Virus record (IMG/VR): IMGVR_UViG_3300032093_000005
From: a virus
Lineage: Duplodnaviria > Caudoviricetes
Reading direction: 5' to 3' (one strand)
Length of the DNA: 64,000 nucleotides
The translations under genes were made by a program, and so were the position numbers. The notes beneath the pieces are model-generated. The model was not told the DNA's origin and made no database searches. It worked only from the letters and a program-made list of their open reading frames with translations. This document shows positions 1 to 59,254 of the stretch, piece after piece (within the stretch, counting starts at the first letter, position 1; each line of letters begins with the position of its first letter).

Positions 1-112
1 ACAGGATTTTGAAGAACAACTACAGGATCTCCATCATTTTCATCTATCATAACTAATGATAGAATTTCTTCTCCTGATACTAGTTTAATAATTGCGTAAA
101 ACTCTTCTCCCA

Positions 113-1576
113 TCAGTTCTTTAGCGGTATGTTTACAATATCATAATTGAAATTTTCTTCATTATAAACTTTGATTCTTTCGATTAAGTGATTGAGTGTA
201 TAATTCTTTCTTGACTTATAACTGATATCATCGGCAATATCATATAAAGTTGCTTTGGTCTTATTGTCACCTTTTCTTAGAACTCTTCCGATTGATTGAA
301 GATTTCTGATTCTTGACTTTGATGGAGAAGCAAAGATAACATTGTGTAGATTTTTAATGTTAATACCAGTAGAGAAAGTTCCATAAGAAGCAACGATGAT
401 AGCGTTGTTTTCTTTTTCAGTAATTTCTCTAACTTTTTCTCGGTCTTCTGTATCAACACCACCATGCACAAAAAATACGTGGCGTTGTTCGACGGTGCTA
501 TTATTTATGAGGTCGTATAAAGGTTGTCCGTGACCTTCGACTCTGGAAAATAGAATTAAAGTATTTCCTTTGAGATCAAGTGCAAGGTTTCTGATGAATT
601 TATTACGTTTCTCATGATTGATAATATATTGGACTTCTTCTTCAAAGTTTTCAAATTTATGTGGTGAGTGTTTCAATAGAAGTATATTGATGTCAAGTTT
701 GGCAACGTGACCTTTCTGCATCAGTTCTTCTGTTCTGATGATTTTATAAGAAGGACCAAATAAACCTTCCAGAACCCATTTGTGTGTTTGTGTACCGTCC
801 AATGTTCCTGTAAAACCGTAACGATATTTTGCATCAGAAAGTTTTGTCATTATAGATACTAATGACTTTGATTTAAACTGGTGTGCTTCATCTCCAACGA
901 CCACATTAAATCTTGAGAAATATTGTCGGGGAAGTTTGTAGATGGACTGCCAGGTTGTAATGATCACCTGAGAATCCGTTTCTCTTTCTTTTCCCGCATA
1001 GATCTTGTGGCAGTATGAACCCACGTCCCACCCATAATCTGCAAAGTCTTTATACATCTGCTCTACAAGGGATGTCGTCGGAACGACTATCAGAATATTT
1101 TGTCCTTTCTCAACGTAATATCTCACAATCGAGTATATCATCAACGACTTTCCAGAAGCAGTTGGAGATATCAACAACTTTCGATTATGTTTTAAAGCGT
1201 CGTATACTCCCTCAACTTGGTATTCGCGGGGAGCATACTTGCAAATAGAAGTCATATAGTCTTTAACTCCTTCTTTTGAAATCATATCATTGACTTCAAA
1301 TGGGAGACCATAATATTTGTTATTTCTAAACTCATAAGTGTAGTTGTGTTGTTCACAAAATCTTATGAGTTTATCTAATAAACCAACGTATATTTCTTGC
1401 GTATTGACATTAAACAGATAAATGAATCCATCCCACCACTTATTTTTATAAGCGGGAGCAAACTTGGCATTCGGAACTTCAAATTGAAATGCGTCTCTTA
1501 ATTCATAGTAGACGTGTGGTTCTGCTTCAACCTGAAGATATACCTCATTCTTTTTTGAGATAATCAAATGTGACAT
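113..1576 (-). CDS. uvsW: UvsW SF2 DNA helicase
   Basis: Walker A SPTASGKS, DEAH box, TGT motif III, QSIGRVLR motif VI; T4-like synteny after uvsY. Confidence 0.96.
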   Translation of the reverse strand: MSHLIISKKNEVYLQVEAEPHVYYELRDAFQFEVPNAKFAPAYKNKWWDGFIYLFNVNTQEIYVGLLDKLIRFCEQHNYTYEFRNNKYYGLPFEVNDMISKEGVKDYMTSICKYAPREYQVEGVYDALKHNRKLLISPTASGKSLMIYSIVRYYVEKGQNILIVVPTTSLVEQMYKDFADYGWDVGSYCHKIYAGKERETDSQVIITTWQSIYKLPRQYFSRFNVVVGDEAHQFKSKSLVSIMTKLSDAKYRYGFTGTLDGTQTHKWVLEGLFGPSYKIIRTEELMQKGHVAKLDINILLLKHSPHKFENFEEEVQYIINHEKRNKFIRNLALDLKGNTLILFSRVEGHGQPLYDLINNSTVEQRHVFFVHGGVDTEDREKVREITEKENNAIIVASYGTFSTGINIKNLHNVIFASPSKSRIRNLQSIGRVLRKGDNKTKATLYDIADDISYKSRKNYTLNHLIERIKVYNEENFNYDIVNIPLKN

Positions 1577-49370: not shown

Positions 49371-49448
49371 ATCTCGTCGAGATGTATGTATGTGTGTCTC
49401 GACGAGATAATGTGTGCGCTCTCGACTAGATTATTCTTTTCGAGATCT
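49371..49448. repeat. cluster 1 of CTCGWCGAG palindromic repeats
   Basis: CTCGTCGAG 49373, CTCGACGAG 49398, CTCGACTAG 49421. Confidence 0.8.
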
Positions 49449-52884: not shown

Positions 52885-52890
52885 GATGGT

Positions 52891-53022
52891 CTCGTCGAGA
52901 TGTGCATAATCTAGTTGATCTTGCTGATCTCGTCGAGAGAGGTGTACCACTAGATGAACTGGCACACCTCGACGAGTTTCAGAACTGGATCTCGTCTAGT
53001 GTTGGAACATTATCTTGACTAG
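52891..53022. repeat. cluster 2 of CTCGWCGAG palindromic repeats
   Basis: Exact copies at 52891, 52929, 52968; variants CTCGTCTAG 52991, CTTGACTAG 53014. Confidence 0.8.
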
Positions 53023-55326: not shown

Positions 55327-55479
55327 TCAATAAAGATCAGAGTAATCTTTGATTCTACAGTCTACCTCTTCACCACCTTCCAATTGCAGGACTTCCCTCC
55401 AATTGATATCTTCTAGATCTAGATCATCATAACATCTAATGTCCAGCGTGACTCGAACTAGTCTCTTTTGTGCAATCAT
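55327..55479 (-). CDS. hypothetical early protein (50 aa)
   Basis: Hand translation MIAQKRLVRVTLDIRCYDDLDLEDINWREVLQLEGGEEVDCRIKDYSDLY. Confidence 0.7.
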   Translation of the reverse strand: MIAQKRLVRVTLDIRCYDDLDLEDINWREVLQLEGGEEVDCRIKDYSDLY

Positions 55480-55510
55480 AAGATCCTCGTGCGTTGTGTT
55501 CTAGATTCTA

Positions 55511-55651
55511 TCATGCATAATGGCGATATGCAAGATCTTGATAATCTTGCCCATCTCGTGCATAATCCTCGTCGAGATCTTGTGTATACTCGTCGAGATC
55601 GTATGAATAGTCTGATGCGTATGTATAGTCGAGATCGTAGTCGTCGTACAT
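55511..55651 (-). CDS. Asp/Tyr-rich microprotein (start MYDDY, 46 aa)
   Basis: MYDDYDLDYTYASDYSYDLDEYTQDLDEDYARDGQDYQDLAYRHYA. Confidence 0.6.
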   Translation of the reverse strand: MYDDYDLDYTYASDYSYDLDEYTQDLDEDYARDGQDYQDLAYRHYA

Positions 55652-55768
55652 AATGCTCGTCGAGATTGTGTAACTGAATGAATTATAGCATAATCCTCGA
55701 CGAGATTGCAAGCTTTATGATGCACCGTCTCGTCGAGATCATGCTAATATATATGCACTATCGTCGAG
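55553..55768. repeat. cluster 3 of CTCGWCGAG palindromic repeats
   Basis: Exact copies at 55568, 55589, 55656, 55696, 55729; variants at 55628, 55760. Confidence 0.85.
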
Positions 55769-55803
55769 AATTGTGTGCTTTTATAAACATGAGATCTCTG
55801 AGT

Positions 55804-55832
55804 ATCATAACACGAACGCACAAGACTGTCAA
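55804..55832 (-). promoter_or_regulatory. sigma70-type promoter (leftward)
   Basis: TTGACA-17-TATGAT on minus strand. Confidence 0.8.
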
Positions 55833-55880
55833 GGTCTCTGAGTCTTATGTGTGGGTCTCATGGGAAATTTTTGGAGGCGC

Positions 55881-55909
55881 TTGACTTTTTTGAGTTCTTG
55901 TGATAGACT
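55881..55909 (+). promoter_or_regulatory. sigma70-type promoter (rightward, into tandem repeat)
   Basis: TTGACT-17-TAGACT. Confidence 0.75.
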
Positions 55910-55933
55910 GCTCGCCTAACTCACAAGACCTAG

Positions 55934-56080
55934 AAGGTTTTAATGAGTATTACATAAGGTTTTAATGAGTATTACATAAGGTTTTAATGAGTATTACATA
56001 AGGTTTTAATGAGTATTACATAAGGTTTTAATGAGTATTAGTAGAAGGATTTAGAGAGTATTACATAAGGTTTTAATGAG
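55934..56080 (+). repeat. 22-bp tandem repeat, ~6.6 copies (AAGGTTTTAATGAGTATTACAT)
   Basis: Four perfect units 55934-56021, two variant units, one partial; no spacers. Confidence 0.97.
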
Positions 56081-56110
56081 AATAAACACACCTATTCTCA
56101 ACTAATACCC

Positions 56111-56152
56111 TTATTGATTCTCAATAACAATCACCTTATTGAGAATCAATAT
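56111..56152. repeat. 16-bp perfect inverted repeat, each arm itself a TTATTGA-N3-TCAATA palindrome
   Basis: TATTGATTCTCAATAA-caatcacc-TTATTGAGAATCAATA followed by TATGTTTTTT. Confidence 0.9.
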
Positions 56153-56193
56153 ATGTTTTTTAATACCTTTTTTAATTAAATTTAAGTTAAAAT

Positions 56194-56379
56194 ATGTCTA
56201 AAATCACAAAAAGACCACAAAATATGTGTTATTCCTGTTGGTATACATGGTATCCAAGAGGTAAGAACATTTCGAATGTTTGTCCTAATTGCGGAAGTCG
56301 TAATACAGGAATTGATCTCAGTGGGTTAATACTCTTTGTGATTATACTGATTATGATCTTGATCTTTGCGACGATCTAA
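56194..56379 (+). CDS. Zn-ribbon protein with C-terminal transmembrane helix
   Basis: CYSC...CPNCG plus hydrophobic LILFVIILIMILIFATI; the only credible plus-strand ORF in the window. Confidence 0.6.
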   Translation: MSKITKRPQNMCYSCWYTWYPRGKNISNVCPNCGSRNTGIDLSGLILFVIILIMILIFATI

Positions 56380-56568
56380 TTCATTTTGAAGTTGTTGCAC
56401 ATAGTCTTGAGTGTTTGGAAAGAACATACAATCTGCAATCTCACACCATAGATCTTCTGATGGAATATCTGCAAGTTCTTCATCAGACCAGTAACAAGGA
56501 GGAAAAATCATTTCAACCTCCACCATAAACATAAGACACAACACCAGCAGGATGATTGACATTCTCAA
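56326..56568 (-). CDS. hypothetical protein (start probably near MIFPP)
   Basis: Acidic ORF; 3' end overlaps the convergent plus-strand ORF. Confidence 0.55.
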   Translation of the reverse strand: MRMSIILLVLCLMFMVEVEMIFPPCYWSDEELADIPSEDLWCEIADCMFFPNTQDYVQQLQNELDRRKDQDHNQYNHKEY

Positions 56569-58360: not shown

Positions 58361-59254
58361 TTATTTAGACCATGCCTTTTGCATCGTGAAGTTCGCATGA
58401 CTGAAGAACTCTCTGTTGACCAGTTTATAAGTGCCATACTCATTGGACATTACATAACCTTCGGCATCAATCCGATCATATCCAATATAAGCAGCAGGGC
58501 CATCATTGCGACACAGGAACAGACAATCTTCCTTGATGGATTTGACCAACTTCCACAGGCGAATCAGATTGGCATCACAATCAAATGCATCATCCTCAAT
58601 CTTACGCTGTTCCCGAATACACGCATTGATCGCTTTCTTCAATTCAGTCAGTTGTTTACCAGACACAAAGGTGCAAGTAGTAGACATTTGACGGGCAAAG
58701 TCACAGATTTCTTCCACATCAGCAAAAGAGATCTGATTGTGTTGAATATATGCTTTGGGTTTCACAAACAACACTTCATCAGTGCTGTTCAGATTAACTG
58801 TAAGTGGAATTGCCCAACTGTCACGCAGATCATCATTTGCCTCATAACGAGTATGAGGAGCAAGAATCACCTTGTGTGTGATGACATCAGGAAACTGATA
58901 AGTGATGGTATTAGGAGTGTATTCAGTGTCTCCACCAAAACCAATGAAATCACCTTGAATAATATCTTCGGTACGTGGCAGAACATCAAAACACTCATGC
59001 AAAATGTTTGCCACATTGCCTTCATAGAATTGATCAATCTCTTCATGAGAATGTGCAATGCGAATCTTTACCTTGTTGAAAACCGCTTTGGTGCCAACAA
59101 AGAATTGACCATTAGCAGGATTGGTTCCCCATACAATCGCAGGAGCACCATCAATCTTCAGAGACAATGTGCCTGCAGCAGTGAACCAATCCAGCACATT
59201 CAGATCACCATTCAGAATGGTGTCTTCAGGATGCTCAATGTGAAGGTTTTGCAT
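58361..59254 (-). CDS. nucleotide-ligase-fold protein (DUF6267-like, RNA ligase-like)
   Basis: H.EHPED, LKIDGAPA (KxDG), QGDF, EGYV, YKLV motifs; early promoter with box upstream (59280-59338). Confidence 0.6.
   Translation of the reverse strand: MQNLHIEHPEDTILNGDLNVLDWFTAAGTLSLKIDGAPAIVWGTNPANGQFFVGTKAVFNKVKIRIAHSHEEIDQFYEGNVANILHECFDVLPRTEDIIQGDFIGFGGDTEYTPNTITYQFPDVITHKVILAPHTRYEANDDLRDSWAIPLTVNLNSTDEVLFVKPKAYIQHNQISFADVEEICDFARQMSTTCTFVSGKQLTELKKAINACIREQRKIEDDAFDCDANLIRLWKLVKSIKEDCLFLCRNDGPAAYIGYDRIDAEGYVMSNEYGTYKLVNREFFSHANFTMQKAWSK

What the first reader, a model, noticed from the sequence alone, without database searches (positions are those of the whole stretch)
55881..56379. Plus-strand cassette: promoter, 22-nt tandem repeats, hairpin plus U-tract, then a Zn-ribbon membrane ORF
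Seen: a TTGACT-17-TAGACT promoter points into ~6.6 copies of AAGGTTTTAATGAGTATTACAT. A 16-bp perfect inverted repeat with a T-tract follows, then the only credible plus-strand ORF in 64 kb (CxxC..CPxCG plus TM helix). TCTTGTGA/TCACAAGA inverted half-sites flank the -10. Established: promoter, tandem-repeat RNA, terminator, toxin ORF is the layout of type III toxin-antitoxin loci (toxIN, abiQ), and phage phiTE evades ToxIN with expanded pseudo-ToxI repeats. Inference: this is a repeat RNA decoy or antitoxin, perhaps controlling the downstream membrane protein. The alternative is an iteron origin (22 bp = two helical turns, paired palindromes, AT-rich tract 56152-56195). The ORF does not resemble ToxN.
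Basis: partly seen in the sequence, partly recalled or inferred. Interest (0 to 1): 0.82.

Follow-up and report, generated by a model that had tools for sequence, protein, structure and literature searches.

The report
Origin-like control module of cyanophages
The promoter, repeat array, hairpin and small gene are all real, but they are not a toxin-antitoxin-style RNA locus: they are one copy of a conserved non-coding module found in over a hundred cyanophage contigs, most likely a transcription-activated replication origin carrying binding sites for host regulators.

Summary
The window comes from a 174.7-kb T4-like cyanophage record.

The cassette is not private to this phage. A profile of the promoter region finds one copy in each of 106 fetched cyanophage loci. 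These include cultured phages S-SRM01, DSL-LC03, S-T4 and Bellamy, and the siphovirus S-SKS1.

The shared anatomy, in order:
- CTCG-N-CGAG palindromes
- two back-to-back sigma-70 promoters
- an optional array of units of 11, 20-22 or 31-33 bp
- a host-factor cassette
- an AT-rich tract
- an optional counter-oriented passenger gene

The window's 16-bp inverted repeat is a pair of boxes matching the core of the cyanobacterial FurA consensus. In other modules, clustered cyanobacterial DnaA boxes occupy that position.

The passenger is a GIY-YIG or HNH homing endonuclease, the Zn-ribbon ORF, or nothing.

As RNA the arrays are unstructured. The inverted repeat shows no compensatory changes, and no ToxN-like gene exists. 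A type III toxin-antitoxin or decoy reading is therefore not supported.

The closest architecture is T4 oriE. I found no published description.

The parts
55567..55769 (.). Six copies of the odd palindrome (T)CTCG-W-CGAGA, lying in the roughly 320-nt leader of the leftward early promoter. This is the upstream flank of the module.
   Evidence: 11 sites in the window against 0.44 expected, in three clusters. The same motif flanks the module in relatives.
55804..55832 (-). P_left: TTGACA, 17 nt, TATGAT with an extended TG. It points into the early genes and sits back to back with P_right, 48 bp away.
   Evidence: 11 of 12 matches. The TGTCAAG sequence is conserved in relatives.
55833..55880 (.). 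Conserved G-rich spacer between the two promoters (TGTGTGGGTCTC...GGG...).
   Evidence: Alignments.
55881..55909 (+). P_right: TTGACT, 17 nt, TGnTAGACT. It points against all neighbouring genes.
   Evidence: The nhmmer profile hits 106 loci, one copy each. The -35 is nearly invariant.
55896..55928 (.). Inverted half-sites TCTTGTGA and TCACAAGA around the -10. The right half resembles the array core TYAYAAGA and is the start of the first array unit in some relatives.
55934..56080 (+). 6.6 copies of a 22-bp unit, each made of two related 11-bp halves. These are candidate iterons, meaning helically phased protein-binding sites.
   Evidence: array periods across modules are 11, 12, 20-22, 31-33 and 45; shared core GGCATTTATAAG; unstructured as RNA.
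56077..56103 (.). Small hairpin GAGAATA-N8-TATTCTC, containing box 1 (TATTCTCAAC).
56112..56151 (.). Perfect 16-bp inverted repeat. It is boxes 2 and 3, ATTCTCAATAA-N8-TTATTGAGAAT, which match the core of the cyanobacterial FurA box. This is the host-factor cassette, type A.
   Evidence: FurA consensus from PMC4005646. The same pair with the same gap occurs in cyanobacterial genomes.
56152..56195 (.). AT-rich tract with two TTTTTTAAT repeats (56156-56164 and 56168-56176). This is the candidate DNA unwinding element.
56194..56379 (+). 61-aa Zn-ribbon protein with a C-terminal hydrophobic helix. It is a passenger gene in the variable slot downstream of the module.

Best explanation
The cassette is the window's copy of a conserved, single-copy, cis-acting DNA module of T4-like cyanophages, also present in the siphovirus S-SKS1. 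Most likely it is a replication origin of the T4 oriE/oriF type.

Proposed mechanism, all of it inferred:
1. Host RNA polymerase fires early from the strong sigma-70 promoter P_right, against the direction of all phage genes.
2. Transcription runs through a lattice of helically phased protein-binding repeats, here the 22-bp array of two 11-bp halves.
3. It then passes a cassette of host-protein sites. Here these are three Fur-box-like sites, two of which form the 16-bp inverted repeat. In other phages the cassette is 2-5 DnaA boxes.
4. It enters an easily melted AT-rich tract. There the transcript (as an R-loop) and/or the bound proteins open the duplex, so the phage helicase loader and replisome can assemble.
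5. The bound host proteins may couple firing to the state of the host.

The Zn-ribbon ORF is a lineage-specific passenger that uses P_right read-through. Homing-endonuclease genes do the same at this position in other phages. The ORF is not a toxin partner of the repeats.

What is shown: the anatomy, its conservation, and the identity of the DnaA boxes. What is inferred: promoter activity, Fur binding, the protein that binds the repeats, and replication initiation itself.
For: 1. Conservation. One copy per locus in 106 loci. A single copy in the 174.7-kb record. Present in cultured phages S-SKS1, S-SRM01, DSL-LC03, S-T4, Bellamy and Sf-CH5.

2. DnaA boxes. Clusters occupy the position of the window's inverted repeat in 18 of 80 modules. 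In S-SKS1, 3 of the 9 boxes in 208 kb lie within 51 bp directly after the array, at 21-bp spacing. In DSL-LC03, 7 of 13 lie within 460 bp around the module. TTTTCCACA is the cyanobacterial DnaA box (PMC4674748).

3. Helical phasing. Array periods are 11, 12, 20-22, 31-33 and 45 bp, which are multiples of a helical turn. The arrays share a strand-biased core.

4. AT tract. It is conserved, carries two T6AAT repeats, and is the 6th least stable 60-bp window in the genome.

5. No RNA-level selection. The arrays are unstructured as RNA, with z-scores of +0.65, +1.65, -1.69 and +2.22. The inverted repeat has no compensatory changes, and its distance to the T-run varies from 4 to about 20 nt.

6. 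Precedent in T4.
- oriE depends on an early promoter and carries evenly spaced direct repeats (PMC3016281).
- The T4 record shows oriE firing on the strand opposite the surrounding genes. The 50-aa and 45-aa ORFs repEA and repEB lie downstream on that strand, and a GIY-YIG gene lies 0.85 kb away.

7. Homing endonucleases. Their genes cluster at conserved or essential loci (PMC10055350). Here 37 of 80 modules carry one.
Against:
- The window's own module has no DnaA box. Its origin status rests on homology of the module.
- No initiator protein was found among the neighbours.
- Cumulative GC skew is monotonic and uninformative.
- The transcribed region is C-rich rather than G-rich, with mean GC skew -0.16, so it lacks a classic R-loop signature.
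- Only 22 of 80 modules have an array of 2.5 copies or more, so the array is dispensable.
- Fur has no established role at origins.
- About 16 modules carry an NtcA-like GTA-N8-TAC site beside the AT tract. Together with the Fur-like and DnaA boxes, this fits a purely transcriptional control region equally well.
- The locus sample was gathered through the palindrome motif, so it is biased.
Confidence: 0.45

Rival explanations
1. A host-state-sensing control hub for early transcription, with no origin function. Host Fur, DnaA and NtcA, plus an unknown protein that binds the repeats, act as operators or roadblocks among P_left, P_right and perhaps a leftward promoter in the AT tract. They set early gene expression and read-through into the counter-oriented passenger genes.
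For: - The divergent consensus promoters are conserved.
- Fur-like boxes begin 1 nt downstream of a leftward promoter-like site, TTAAAA-16-TATATT, at 56175->56148.
- NtcA-like palindromes sit at a fixed place next to the AT tract in about 16 modules.
- In Nostoc, the same inverted box pair overlaps a TATAAT.
- Passenger genes always lie in the P_right orientation.
Against: - Clusters of up to 7 DnaA boxes are more typical of origins or titration sites than of operators.
- The leftward promoter is weak (9 of 12), and its distance to the boxes varies.
- This reading does not explain the helically phased arrays or why the AT tract is conserved as such.
Confidence: 0.25
2. The P_right transcript is itself the functional product. 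It would be an early, unstructured repeat RNA that sponges an RNA-binding protein, or acts as antisense RNA to the convergent upstream genes.
For: - The promoter is strong and conserved.
- The array starts 6-20 nt after the predicted transcription start.
- The core motif is almost always on the sense strand, for example GCATTTA 61 against 0.
- The arrays are unstructured, as expected for a single-strand binding platform.
Against: - Unit lengths follow the DNA helical repeat.
- The same transcribed stretch carries double-stranded DNA sites such as DnaA boxes.
- No conserved terminator defines a 3' end.
- There is no Rfam match even at E=1.
- Arrays are absent from most modules.
Confidence: 0.12
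3. Decoy DNA. As the genome replicates to hundreds of copies, the clustered Fur-like, DnaA and repeat sites titrate host regulators. This would derepress host iron uptake and block host replication initiation.
For: - Fur-like and DnaA cassettes are interchangeable at one position between about 90%-identical flanks (L088 against L061).
- The DnaA-box clusters are the only ones in their genomes.
- That multicopy Fur boxes titrate Fur is my own knowledge of the principle behind the FURTA assay. I did not check it here.
Against: - Three boxes per genome is a small sink.
- This does not explain the fixed order of promoter, array, boxes and AT tract.
- 24 of 80 modules have neither cassette.
Confidence: 0.08
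4. The variable part (array, cassette and endonuclease gene) is a homing-endonuclease cassette and its target or immunity region. It would have no function for the phage beyond mobility.
For: - 33 GIY-YIG and 4 HNH_3 genes lie directly downstream in the P_right orientation.
- Endonuclease subfamilies partly track the cassette type.
- Array and cassette differ as a block between near-identical flanks.
Against: - 34 of 80 modules, including those of S-SKS1, S-SRM01, DSL-LC03 and Bellamy, have an intact promoter, boxes and AT tract but no endonuclease gene.
- The endonucleases carry no DnaA- or Fur-like DNA-binding domain.
Confidence: 0.08
5. One reading: a type III toxin-antitoxin-like locus or a pseudo-ToxI decoy. 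The repeat RNA would neutralise a toxin, either the downstream membrane ORF or a host ToxN-like nuclease.
For: The layout in the window resembles toxIN on the surface: promoter, tandem repeats, hairpin with T-run, then an ORF.
Against: - The ORF has no ToxN, AbiQ, CptN or TenpN match and no PADLOC match.
- The units are 22 nt and unstructured.
- The hairpin arms are conserved protein-box sequences without covariation.
- DnaA boxes replace the hairpin in relatives that keep the ORF.
- Most modules lack the ORF.
- A scan for the unit in viral contigs found single-copy matches only, with no second array. Four of those 41 loci later proved to be module copies.
Confidence: 0.02

Closest known systems
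Phage T4 oriE (early promoter, evenly spaced direct repeats, repEA and repEB)
   Same: - An early-type promoter fires on the strand opposite the surrounding genes.
- The transcript crosses a cluster of direct repeats and reaches the origin.
- It also carries tiny ORFs of 50 and 45 aa.
- A GIY-YIG endonuclease gene lies nearby.
Sources: PMC3016281 and the T4 record.
   Different: - T4's repeats lie inside the coding repeat of late gene 5. Here the module is non-coding and sits in the early region.
- The Zn-ribbon ORF has no sequence similarity to RepEA or RepEB.
- T4 oriE has no DnaA or Fur-like boxes.
- The role of the T4 repeats is itself unproven.
Phage T4 oriF and oriG (promoter plus downstream unwinding element, R-loop primed)
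   Same: A promoter with a sigma-70-type -10, followed within a few hundred bp by an A+T-rich, easily melted tract.
   Different: - T4 uses MotA-dependent middle promoters, with the unwinding element about 50 bp downstream.
- Here the promoter is a full -35/-10 host-type promoter, and the AT tract lies about 240 bp downstream, after the repeats and host-factor boxes.
- R-loop formation was not tested.
Iteron-type theta origins of plasmids (R6K gamma, pPS10, P1 oriR, F ori2, RK2 oriV)
   Same: - Direct repeats of about 20-22 bp in 3-7 copies, phased with the helix, next to an AT-rich tract.
- DnaA boxes in relatives.
- A promoter flanked by inverted half-sites that resemble the repeat core.
Sources. 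The plasmid features are from my own knowledge and from the R6K mention.
   Different: - No adjacent rep gene or identifiable initiator.
- The promoter points into the repeats rather than into a rep gene.
- The arrays are optional.
Cyanobacterial Fur (FurA) operator
   Same: The three boxes carry ATTCTCAA(T/C)(A/T)A. Boxes 2 and 3 match 11 of 11 of the core of the FurA consensus AAATAAATTCTCAATAAAT and 13-14 of 19 overall. The 11-mer is 5-11 times over-represented in three cyanobacterial genomes. It lies 24 nt upstream of a ferritin-like gene in one of them.
   Different: - The boxes lie about 200 bp inside a transcription unit, not over a clear promoter.
- In Nostoc, the same inverted pair is mostly in plasmid-like non-coding repeats with no iron link.
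- Binding by Fur was not tested.
Type III toxin-antitoxin loci (toxIN, abiQ/antiQ, cptIN, tenpIN) and the phage phiTE pseudo-ToxI
   Same: In the window, the order is promoter, tandem repeats, hairpin, ORF.
   Different: - No endoribonuclease toxin.
- The repeats are half the usual length and unstructured.
- There is no conserved terminator.
- The repeats are optional and vary between close relatives.
Sources.

Membership tests
Type III toxin-antitoxin (ToxIN/AbiQ/CptIN/TenpIN) | A ToxN/AbiQ-fold endoribonuclease gene of about 170-200 aa immediately downstream of the repeats | tested here: not met
   The ORF is a 61-aa Zn-ribbon protein with a membrane helix. Pfam gives only a weak Zn_ribbon_19 hit. 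PADLOC gives no hit. The nearest ESM Atlas clusters are unnamed hypothetical proteins, with small zinc-ribbon families at lower scores and no nuclease family.
Type III toxin-antitoxin (ToxIN/AbiQ/CptIN/TenpIN) | Antitoxin repeats of roughly 34-45 nt that fold (as a pseudoknot) and are cut into units by the toxin | tested here: not met
   The units are 22 nt, made of two 11-nt halves. Three-unit folds are no more stable than shuffles, with z-scores of +0.65, +1.65, -1.69 and +2.22. Processing was not testable.
Type III toxin-antitoxin (ToxIN/AbiQ/CptIN/TenpIN) | A Rho-independent terminator between the repeats and the toxin gene | tested here: inconclusive
   The window has a 16-bp stem with T6 four nt later. 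In 38 relatives, however, only the inner 11 bp are kept, by sequence and with 0 compensatory changes. The T-run lies 4 to about 20 nt away. DnaA boxes replace the stem in relatives that keep the ORF.
T4-type transcription-activated origin (oriE/oriF/oriG) | A promoter active early or in middle mode that fires into the origin | tested here: inconclusive
   The sequence gives a consensus-like -35, a 17-nt spacer and an extended -10, conserved in 96 distinct modules.
T4-type transcription-activated origin (oriE/oriF/oriG) | An A+T-rich unwinding element downstream of the promoter | tested here: met
   The tract at 56152-56195 is conserved with two T6AAT repeats. It is the 6th least stable 60-bp window of 174.7 kb.
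T4-type transcription-activated origin (oriE/oriF/oriG) | Evenly spaced direct repeats (oriE) | tested here: met
   6.6 copies of 22 bp here. Relatives have units of 11, 12, 20-22 and 31-33 bp. T4 repeats were seen at 79426-79540.
T4-type transcription-activated origin (oriE/oriF/oriG) | Replication actually initiates there (R-loop, nascent DNA, plasmid amplification) | not testable with these tools
   No read-depth or RNA data could be obtained. GC skew is uninformative.
Iteron-type theta origin | A cognate Rep initiator gene adjacent to the iterons | tested here: not met
   Neighbouring ORFs have no Rep-like Pfam or PHROG assignment. Downstream genes are homing endonucleases, the Zn-ribbon ORF, or nothing.
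Iteron-type theta origin | DnaA boxes next to the iterons and the AT-rich region | tested here: not met
   None in the window's module. The feature is met in 18 of 80 related modules, including S-SKS1 and DSL-LC03.
Cyanobacterial Fur box | Match to the FurA consensus AAATAAATTCTCAATAAAT | tested here: met
   Boxes 2 and 3 match the ATTCTCAATAA core 11 of 11 and the full consensus 13-14 of 19. Box 1 matches 9 of 11.
Cyanobacterial Fur box | Bound by Fur and associated with iron-regulated genes | tested here: inconclusive
   Of five cyanobacterial chromosomal or plasmid contexts, one is a ferritin-like gene, two are possibly iron-related and two are plasmid functions. The Nostoc copies are mostly in non-coding, plasmid-like repeats. 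Binding was not testable.

The most novel reading that the evidence does not exclude
Cyanophages carry a modular origin or early-control element in which interchangeable cassettes of host-regulator sites are slotted between an early promoter and an unwinding element. The cassettes are Fur-like boxes, DnaA boxes, and in some modules an NtcA-like site. The phage would then gate the start of its DNA replication, or its early counter-transcription, on the host's iron, nitrogen or replication status. Homing endonucleases would shuffle the cassettes between phages.
Probability: 0.2. Interest if true: 0.85.

Novelty: new variant of a known kind. Interest (0 to 1): 0.6.

Why it matters
To my knowledge, no replication origin has been defined for T4-like cyanophages, which are among the most abundant viruses of aquatic primary producers. 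The papers I could search describe none.

This module gives a concrete and testable candidate. It is present in several cultured phages. It is a compact non-coding element with an early promoter, phased repeats, host DnaA or Fur-like sites and an AT-rich tract.

If the host-factor cassettes work, they would extend the known cyanophage use of host nutrient regulators. PhoB and NtcA sites are known, from my own knowledge. Iron status and the replication initiator would be additions, and the regulation would act at replication or early control rather than on auxiliary genes.

The module is also a hot spot for homing endonucleases and a boundary of mosaic exchange.

For annotation, the result warns that a promoter-repeats-hairpin-ORF layout is not enough to call a type III toxin-antitoxin locus.

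Tried and rejected
- **RNA-seq and read depth.** There is no expression or copy-number evidence.
- **Rfam.** No hit at gathering thresholds over the whole window, and none at E<=1 on 55400-56500.
- **Scan of viral contigs for the 22-nt unit**. Single-copy matches only, with no second array. Four of the 41 loci later proved to be real modules.
- **GC skew of the 174.7-kb record**. It declines monotonically because all genes lie on one strand, so it is uninformative.
- **G-rich R-loop signature.** Absent. Mean GC skew of the transcribed region is -0.16.
- **RpaB/HLR1 reading of the array.** The window's unit matches 13 of 16. Across 89 modules, however, such sites are no more frequent than in shuffles: 1.24 against 0.98 per module. 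Rejected as a general explanation.
The downstream nucleases are plain GIY-YIG or HNH_3, in some cases with a weak NUMOD1 match. Rejected.
- **Initiator search.** Pfam and PHROGs on neighbouring ORFs gave only unknown-function families. No initiator candidate emerged.
- **PADLOC** on the ORF and its neighbours gave nothing.
- **Zn-ribbon ORF against T4 RepEA and RepEB.** No alignment.
- **The 66-aa Asp/Tyr-rich minus-strand ORF at 55511-55711.** Gene callers do not call it in most relatives. It looks like a by-product of the palindromes.
- **Literature.** I found no description of this module, of cyanophage Fur boxes, or of cyanophage iterons. One search was wasted on word-start matches. The original oriE paper, PMC94188, is not held, so details of oriE beyond searches are from memory.
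Full report
**What is there.** The window lies in a 174,667-base virus record that is about 78% complete. Its best DNA matches are Synechococcus phages. Almost all ORFs are on the minus strand.

At the finding's coordinates every element is present:
- a TTGACT-17-TAGACT promoter with an extended -10 TG, at 55881-55909;
- the half-sites TCTTGTGA and TCACAAGA around the -10;
- 6.6 copies of a 22-nt unit at 55934-56080;
- a perfect 16-bp inverted repeat at 56112-56151, followed by a T-run;
- an AT-rich tract;
- a 61-aa plus-strand ORF with CxxC...CPNCG and a hydrophobic tail.

I also found a second, stronger promoter on the minus strand at 55832->55804 (TTGACA-17-TATGAT). It sits back to back with the first. 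Its leader holds six copies of the palindrome CTCG-W-CGAG.

**It is a widespread module.**
- S-SKS1, a siphovirus, has the same palindromes, the same promoter with the same half-sites and 4.7 copies of a related 22-nt unit. Three DnaA boxes, an AT-rich tract and no plus-strand ORF follow.
Many of them carry a 20-22-bp tandem array nearby.
- An nhmmer profile of the promoter region then found exactly one copy in each of 106 loci.
- After removing duplicates, 96 modules remain, and 80 have at least 450 nt downstream.
- In the window's own record the module is single-copy.
- Cultured carriers are S-SRM01, DSL-LC03, S-T4, Bellamy, Sf-CH5 and Sf-CH8. Weaker matches to module DNA occur in S-SM2, SynMITS9220M01, S-SCSM1 and S-SCSM2R, which I did not inspect.

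The sample was collected through the palindrome motif, so the proportions below are biased.

**Anatomy across modules.**
- The -35 hexamer, the TG of the extended -10 and the first 20 or so transcribed bases are conserved.
- Arrays begin 6-20 nt after the predicted start.
- Only 22 of 80 modules have 2.5 copies or more. Their periods are 11 (three modules), 12 (one), 20 (seven), 21 (three), 22 (four), 31-33 (three) and 45 (one). These are multiples of one helical turn.
- The window's unit is two related 11-nt halves.
- The arrays share a core, GGCATTTATAAG. It lies almost only on the P_right sense strand.
- The half-site after the -10, TCACAAGA, resembles this core. In some phages it is the start of the first unit.

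**The host-factor cassette.** One of two cassettes follows the array.

Type A is found in 38 of 80 modules, including the window. It has three boxes: TATTCTCAACA, then ATTGATTCTCAATAA, then after 8-12 nt the inverted TTATTGAGAAT. The window's '16-bp perfect inverted repeat' is boxes 2 and 3. Evidence on what binds them:
- Their 11-nt core equals the core of the published Anabaena FurA consensus AAATAAATTCTCAATAAAT (PMC4005646).
- The same inverted pair with the same gap occurs in cyanobacterial genomes.
- The 11-mer is 5-11 times more frequent than its reversed control in three such genomes.
- One copy lies 24 nt upstream of a ferritin-like gene.
- Many Nostoc copies, however, lie in plasmid-like non-coding repeats.

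Fur is therefore the best candidate binder, not an established one.

Type B is found in 17 of 80 modules, and one further module has both types. It has 2-5 DnaA boxes at the same position. TTTTCCACA is the cyanobacterial box (PMC4674748). In S-SKS1 and DSL-LC03 these are the only DnaA-box clusters in the whole genome.

The two cassettes can sit behind about 90%-identical promoters, as in L088 and L061. About 16 modules, but not the window, also carry an NtcA-like GTA-N8-TAC palindrome right after the AT tract.

**The AT tract and the variable slot.** The AT tract is conserved and carries two T6AAT repeats. In the window it is the 6th least stable 60-bp stretch of the record.

The slot after it, always in the P_right orientation, holds:
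- a GIY-YIG homing endonuclease gene (33 modules);
- an HNH_3 endonuclease gene (4);
- the Zn-ribbon ORF (5);
- another ORF of 100 aa or more that I did not classify (4);
- nothing (34).

The Zn-ribbon ORF is a real gene. It has seven homologues with an invariant N-terminal domain. In all five contexts examined it lies behind a module, and those modules carry DnaA boxes rather than the inverted repeat.

**DNA element or RNA?**
- As RNA the arrays fold no better than shuffles.
- The hairpins in the window are significant, with z = -9.2.
- Across 38 type A modules, only the inner 11 pairs of the stem are kept, by sequence. There are no compensatory changes and there are uncompensated breaks. The outer five pairs are mostly broken.
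- The T-run lies 4 to about 20 nt from the stem.
- There is no Rfam match.

Unit lengths that follow the helical repeat, and recognised double-stranded DNA sites in the same stretch, point to a DNA-level function. The transcript may still matter, as a primer or as an activator of unwinding.

**Comparison with known systems.** Type III toxin-antitoxin membership fails on the toxin and on repeat length and structure, and is inconclusive on the terminator.

The closest architecture is T4:
- oriF and oriG are a promoter plus an A+T-rich unwinding element, primed through an R-loop.
- oriE uses an early promoter and has evenly spaced direct repeats of unproven role (PMC3016281).
- The T4 record annotates oriE as firing on the strand opposite late gene 5. 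The 50-aa and 45-aa ORFs repEA and repEB lie downstream on that strand, repeats lie just upstream, and segC (GIY-YIG) is 0.85 kb away.

The order here is the same: counter-oriented early promoter, repeats, AT tract, tiny ORF. There is no sequence similarity between the ORFs.

Iteron plasmids share the phased 20-22-bp repeats, the AT tract, the DnaA boxes and the operator-like inverted half-sites. No Rep gene is present here.

**Verdict.** My odds for each reading:

| Reading | Confidence |
|---|---|
| Transcription-activated origin with host-factor cassettes | 0.45 |
| Purely transcriptional hub that senses host state | 0.25 |
| Functional repeat RNA | 0.12 |
| Decoy DNA | 0.08 |
| Endonuclease cassette | 0.08 |
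| Type III toxin-antitoxin or decoy RNA | 0.02 |

I found no published description of the module.

Noticed in passing
window 49372-49430, 52890-52938, 55567-55769: The odd palindrome (T)CTCG-W-CGAGA forms three clusters. In the whole 174.7-kb record it occurs only in the early region. The clusters lie just upstream of minus-strand start codons or in the P_left leader. Pairs of the motif occur in more than 119 IMG/VR contigs. It may be the operator of a dimeric phage regulator, or an RNA processing or translation signal.
   Followed up: partly
loci L099, L064, L069, L162, L104, L113, L149 (GIY-YIG); L120, L125, L023, L172 (HNH_3): The slot downstream of the module is a hot spot for free-standing homing endonuclease genes. 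They always lie in the P_right orientation, counter to all other phage genes. Endonuclease subfamilies partly track the cassette type.
   Followed up: partly
L190 about 1000-1060 (contig of Synechococcus sp. AG-670-B23): The same Fur-like inverted box pair, plus a third box, lies in a contig that encodes a T7-type terminase and ThyX. This is a T7-like cyanopodovirus sequence inside a single-cell genome, so the box cluster is not confined to T4-like phages.
   Followed up: partly
L201, L202, L203 (Nostoc flagelliforme contigs): ATTCTCAATAA-N8-TTATTGAGAAT pairs recur about 425 bp apart in non-coding stretches of small contigs. Each pair is directly followed by TATAAT. The motif AAAATGTCTGCTATTT is repeated between them. 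This looks like a multicopy plasmid or mobile-element control region. It weakens a simple 'Fur regulon' reading of the box.
   Followed up: partly
L001 (S-SKS1) against window 53.4-63.0 kb: tblastx shows that the siphovirus S-SKS1 shares a syntenic block of small early genes around the module with this T4-like phage. The module therefore travels within a shared early-gene block, not alone.
   Followed up: partly
L066, L133, L058, L094, L095, L128, L165, L001, L011, L021, L109, L150, L068 (downstream of the AT tract): An NtcA-like palindrome GTA-N8-TAC, often GTATCAACGGATAC, sits at a fixed position just after the AT-rich tract in about 16 modules. The window has none.
   Followed up: partly
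L171 1580-1690; L169 2180-2260 and 2600-2640: Extra clusters of 3-7 DnaA boxes flank the module in some phages, on either side of the promoter, box and AT-tract core.
   Followed up: partly
window 58361-59254 (-): A 297-aa protein with a strong DUF6267 match (E 7.5e-79) lies 2 kb from the module. Its function is unknown.
   Followed up: no
window 56326-56379: The 3' end of the Zn-ribbon ORF overlaps the 3' end of the convergent minus-strand ORF by about 54 nt. In relatives L173 and L174 the overlap is only 4 nt.
   Followed up: no
window 1-837: The first 837 bases of the window are not part of the held record.
   Followed up: partly
L170 2275-2374: A run of N interrupts the tandem array in a 241-kb metagenome scaffold. 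Arrays of this kind break assemblies, so copy numbers in metagenomic relatives are lower bounds.
   Followed up: no
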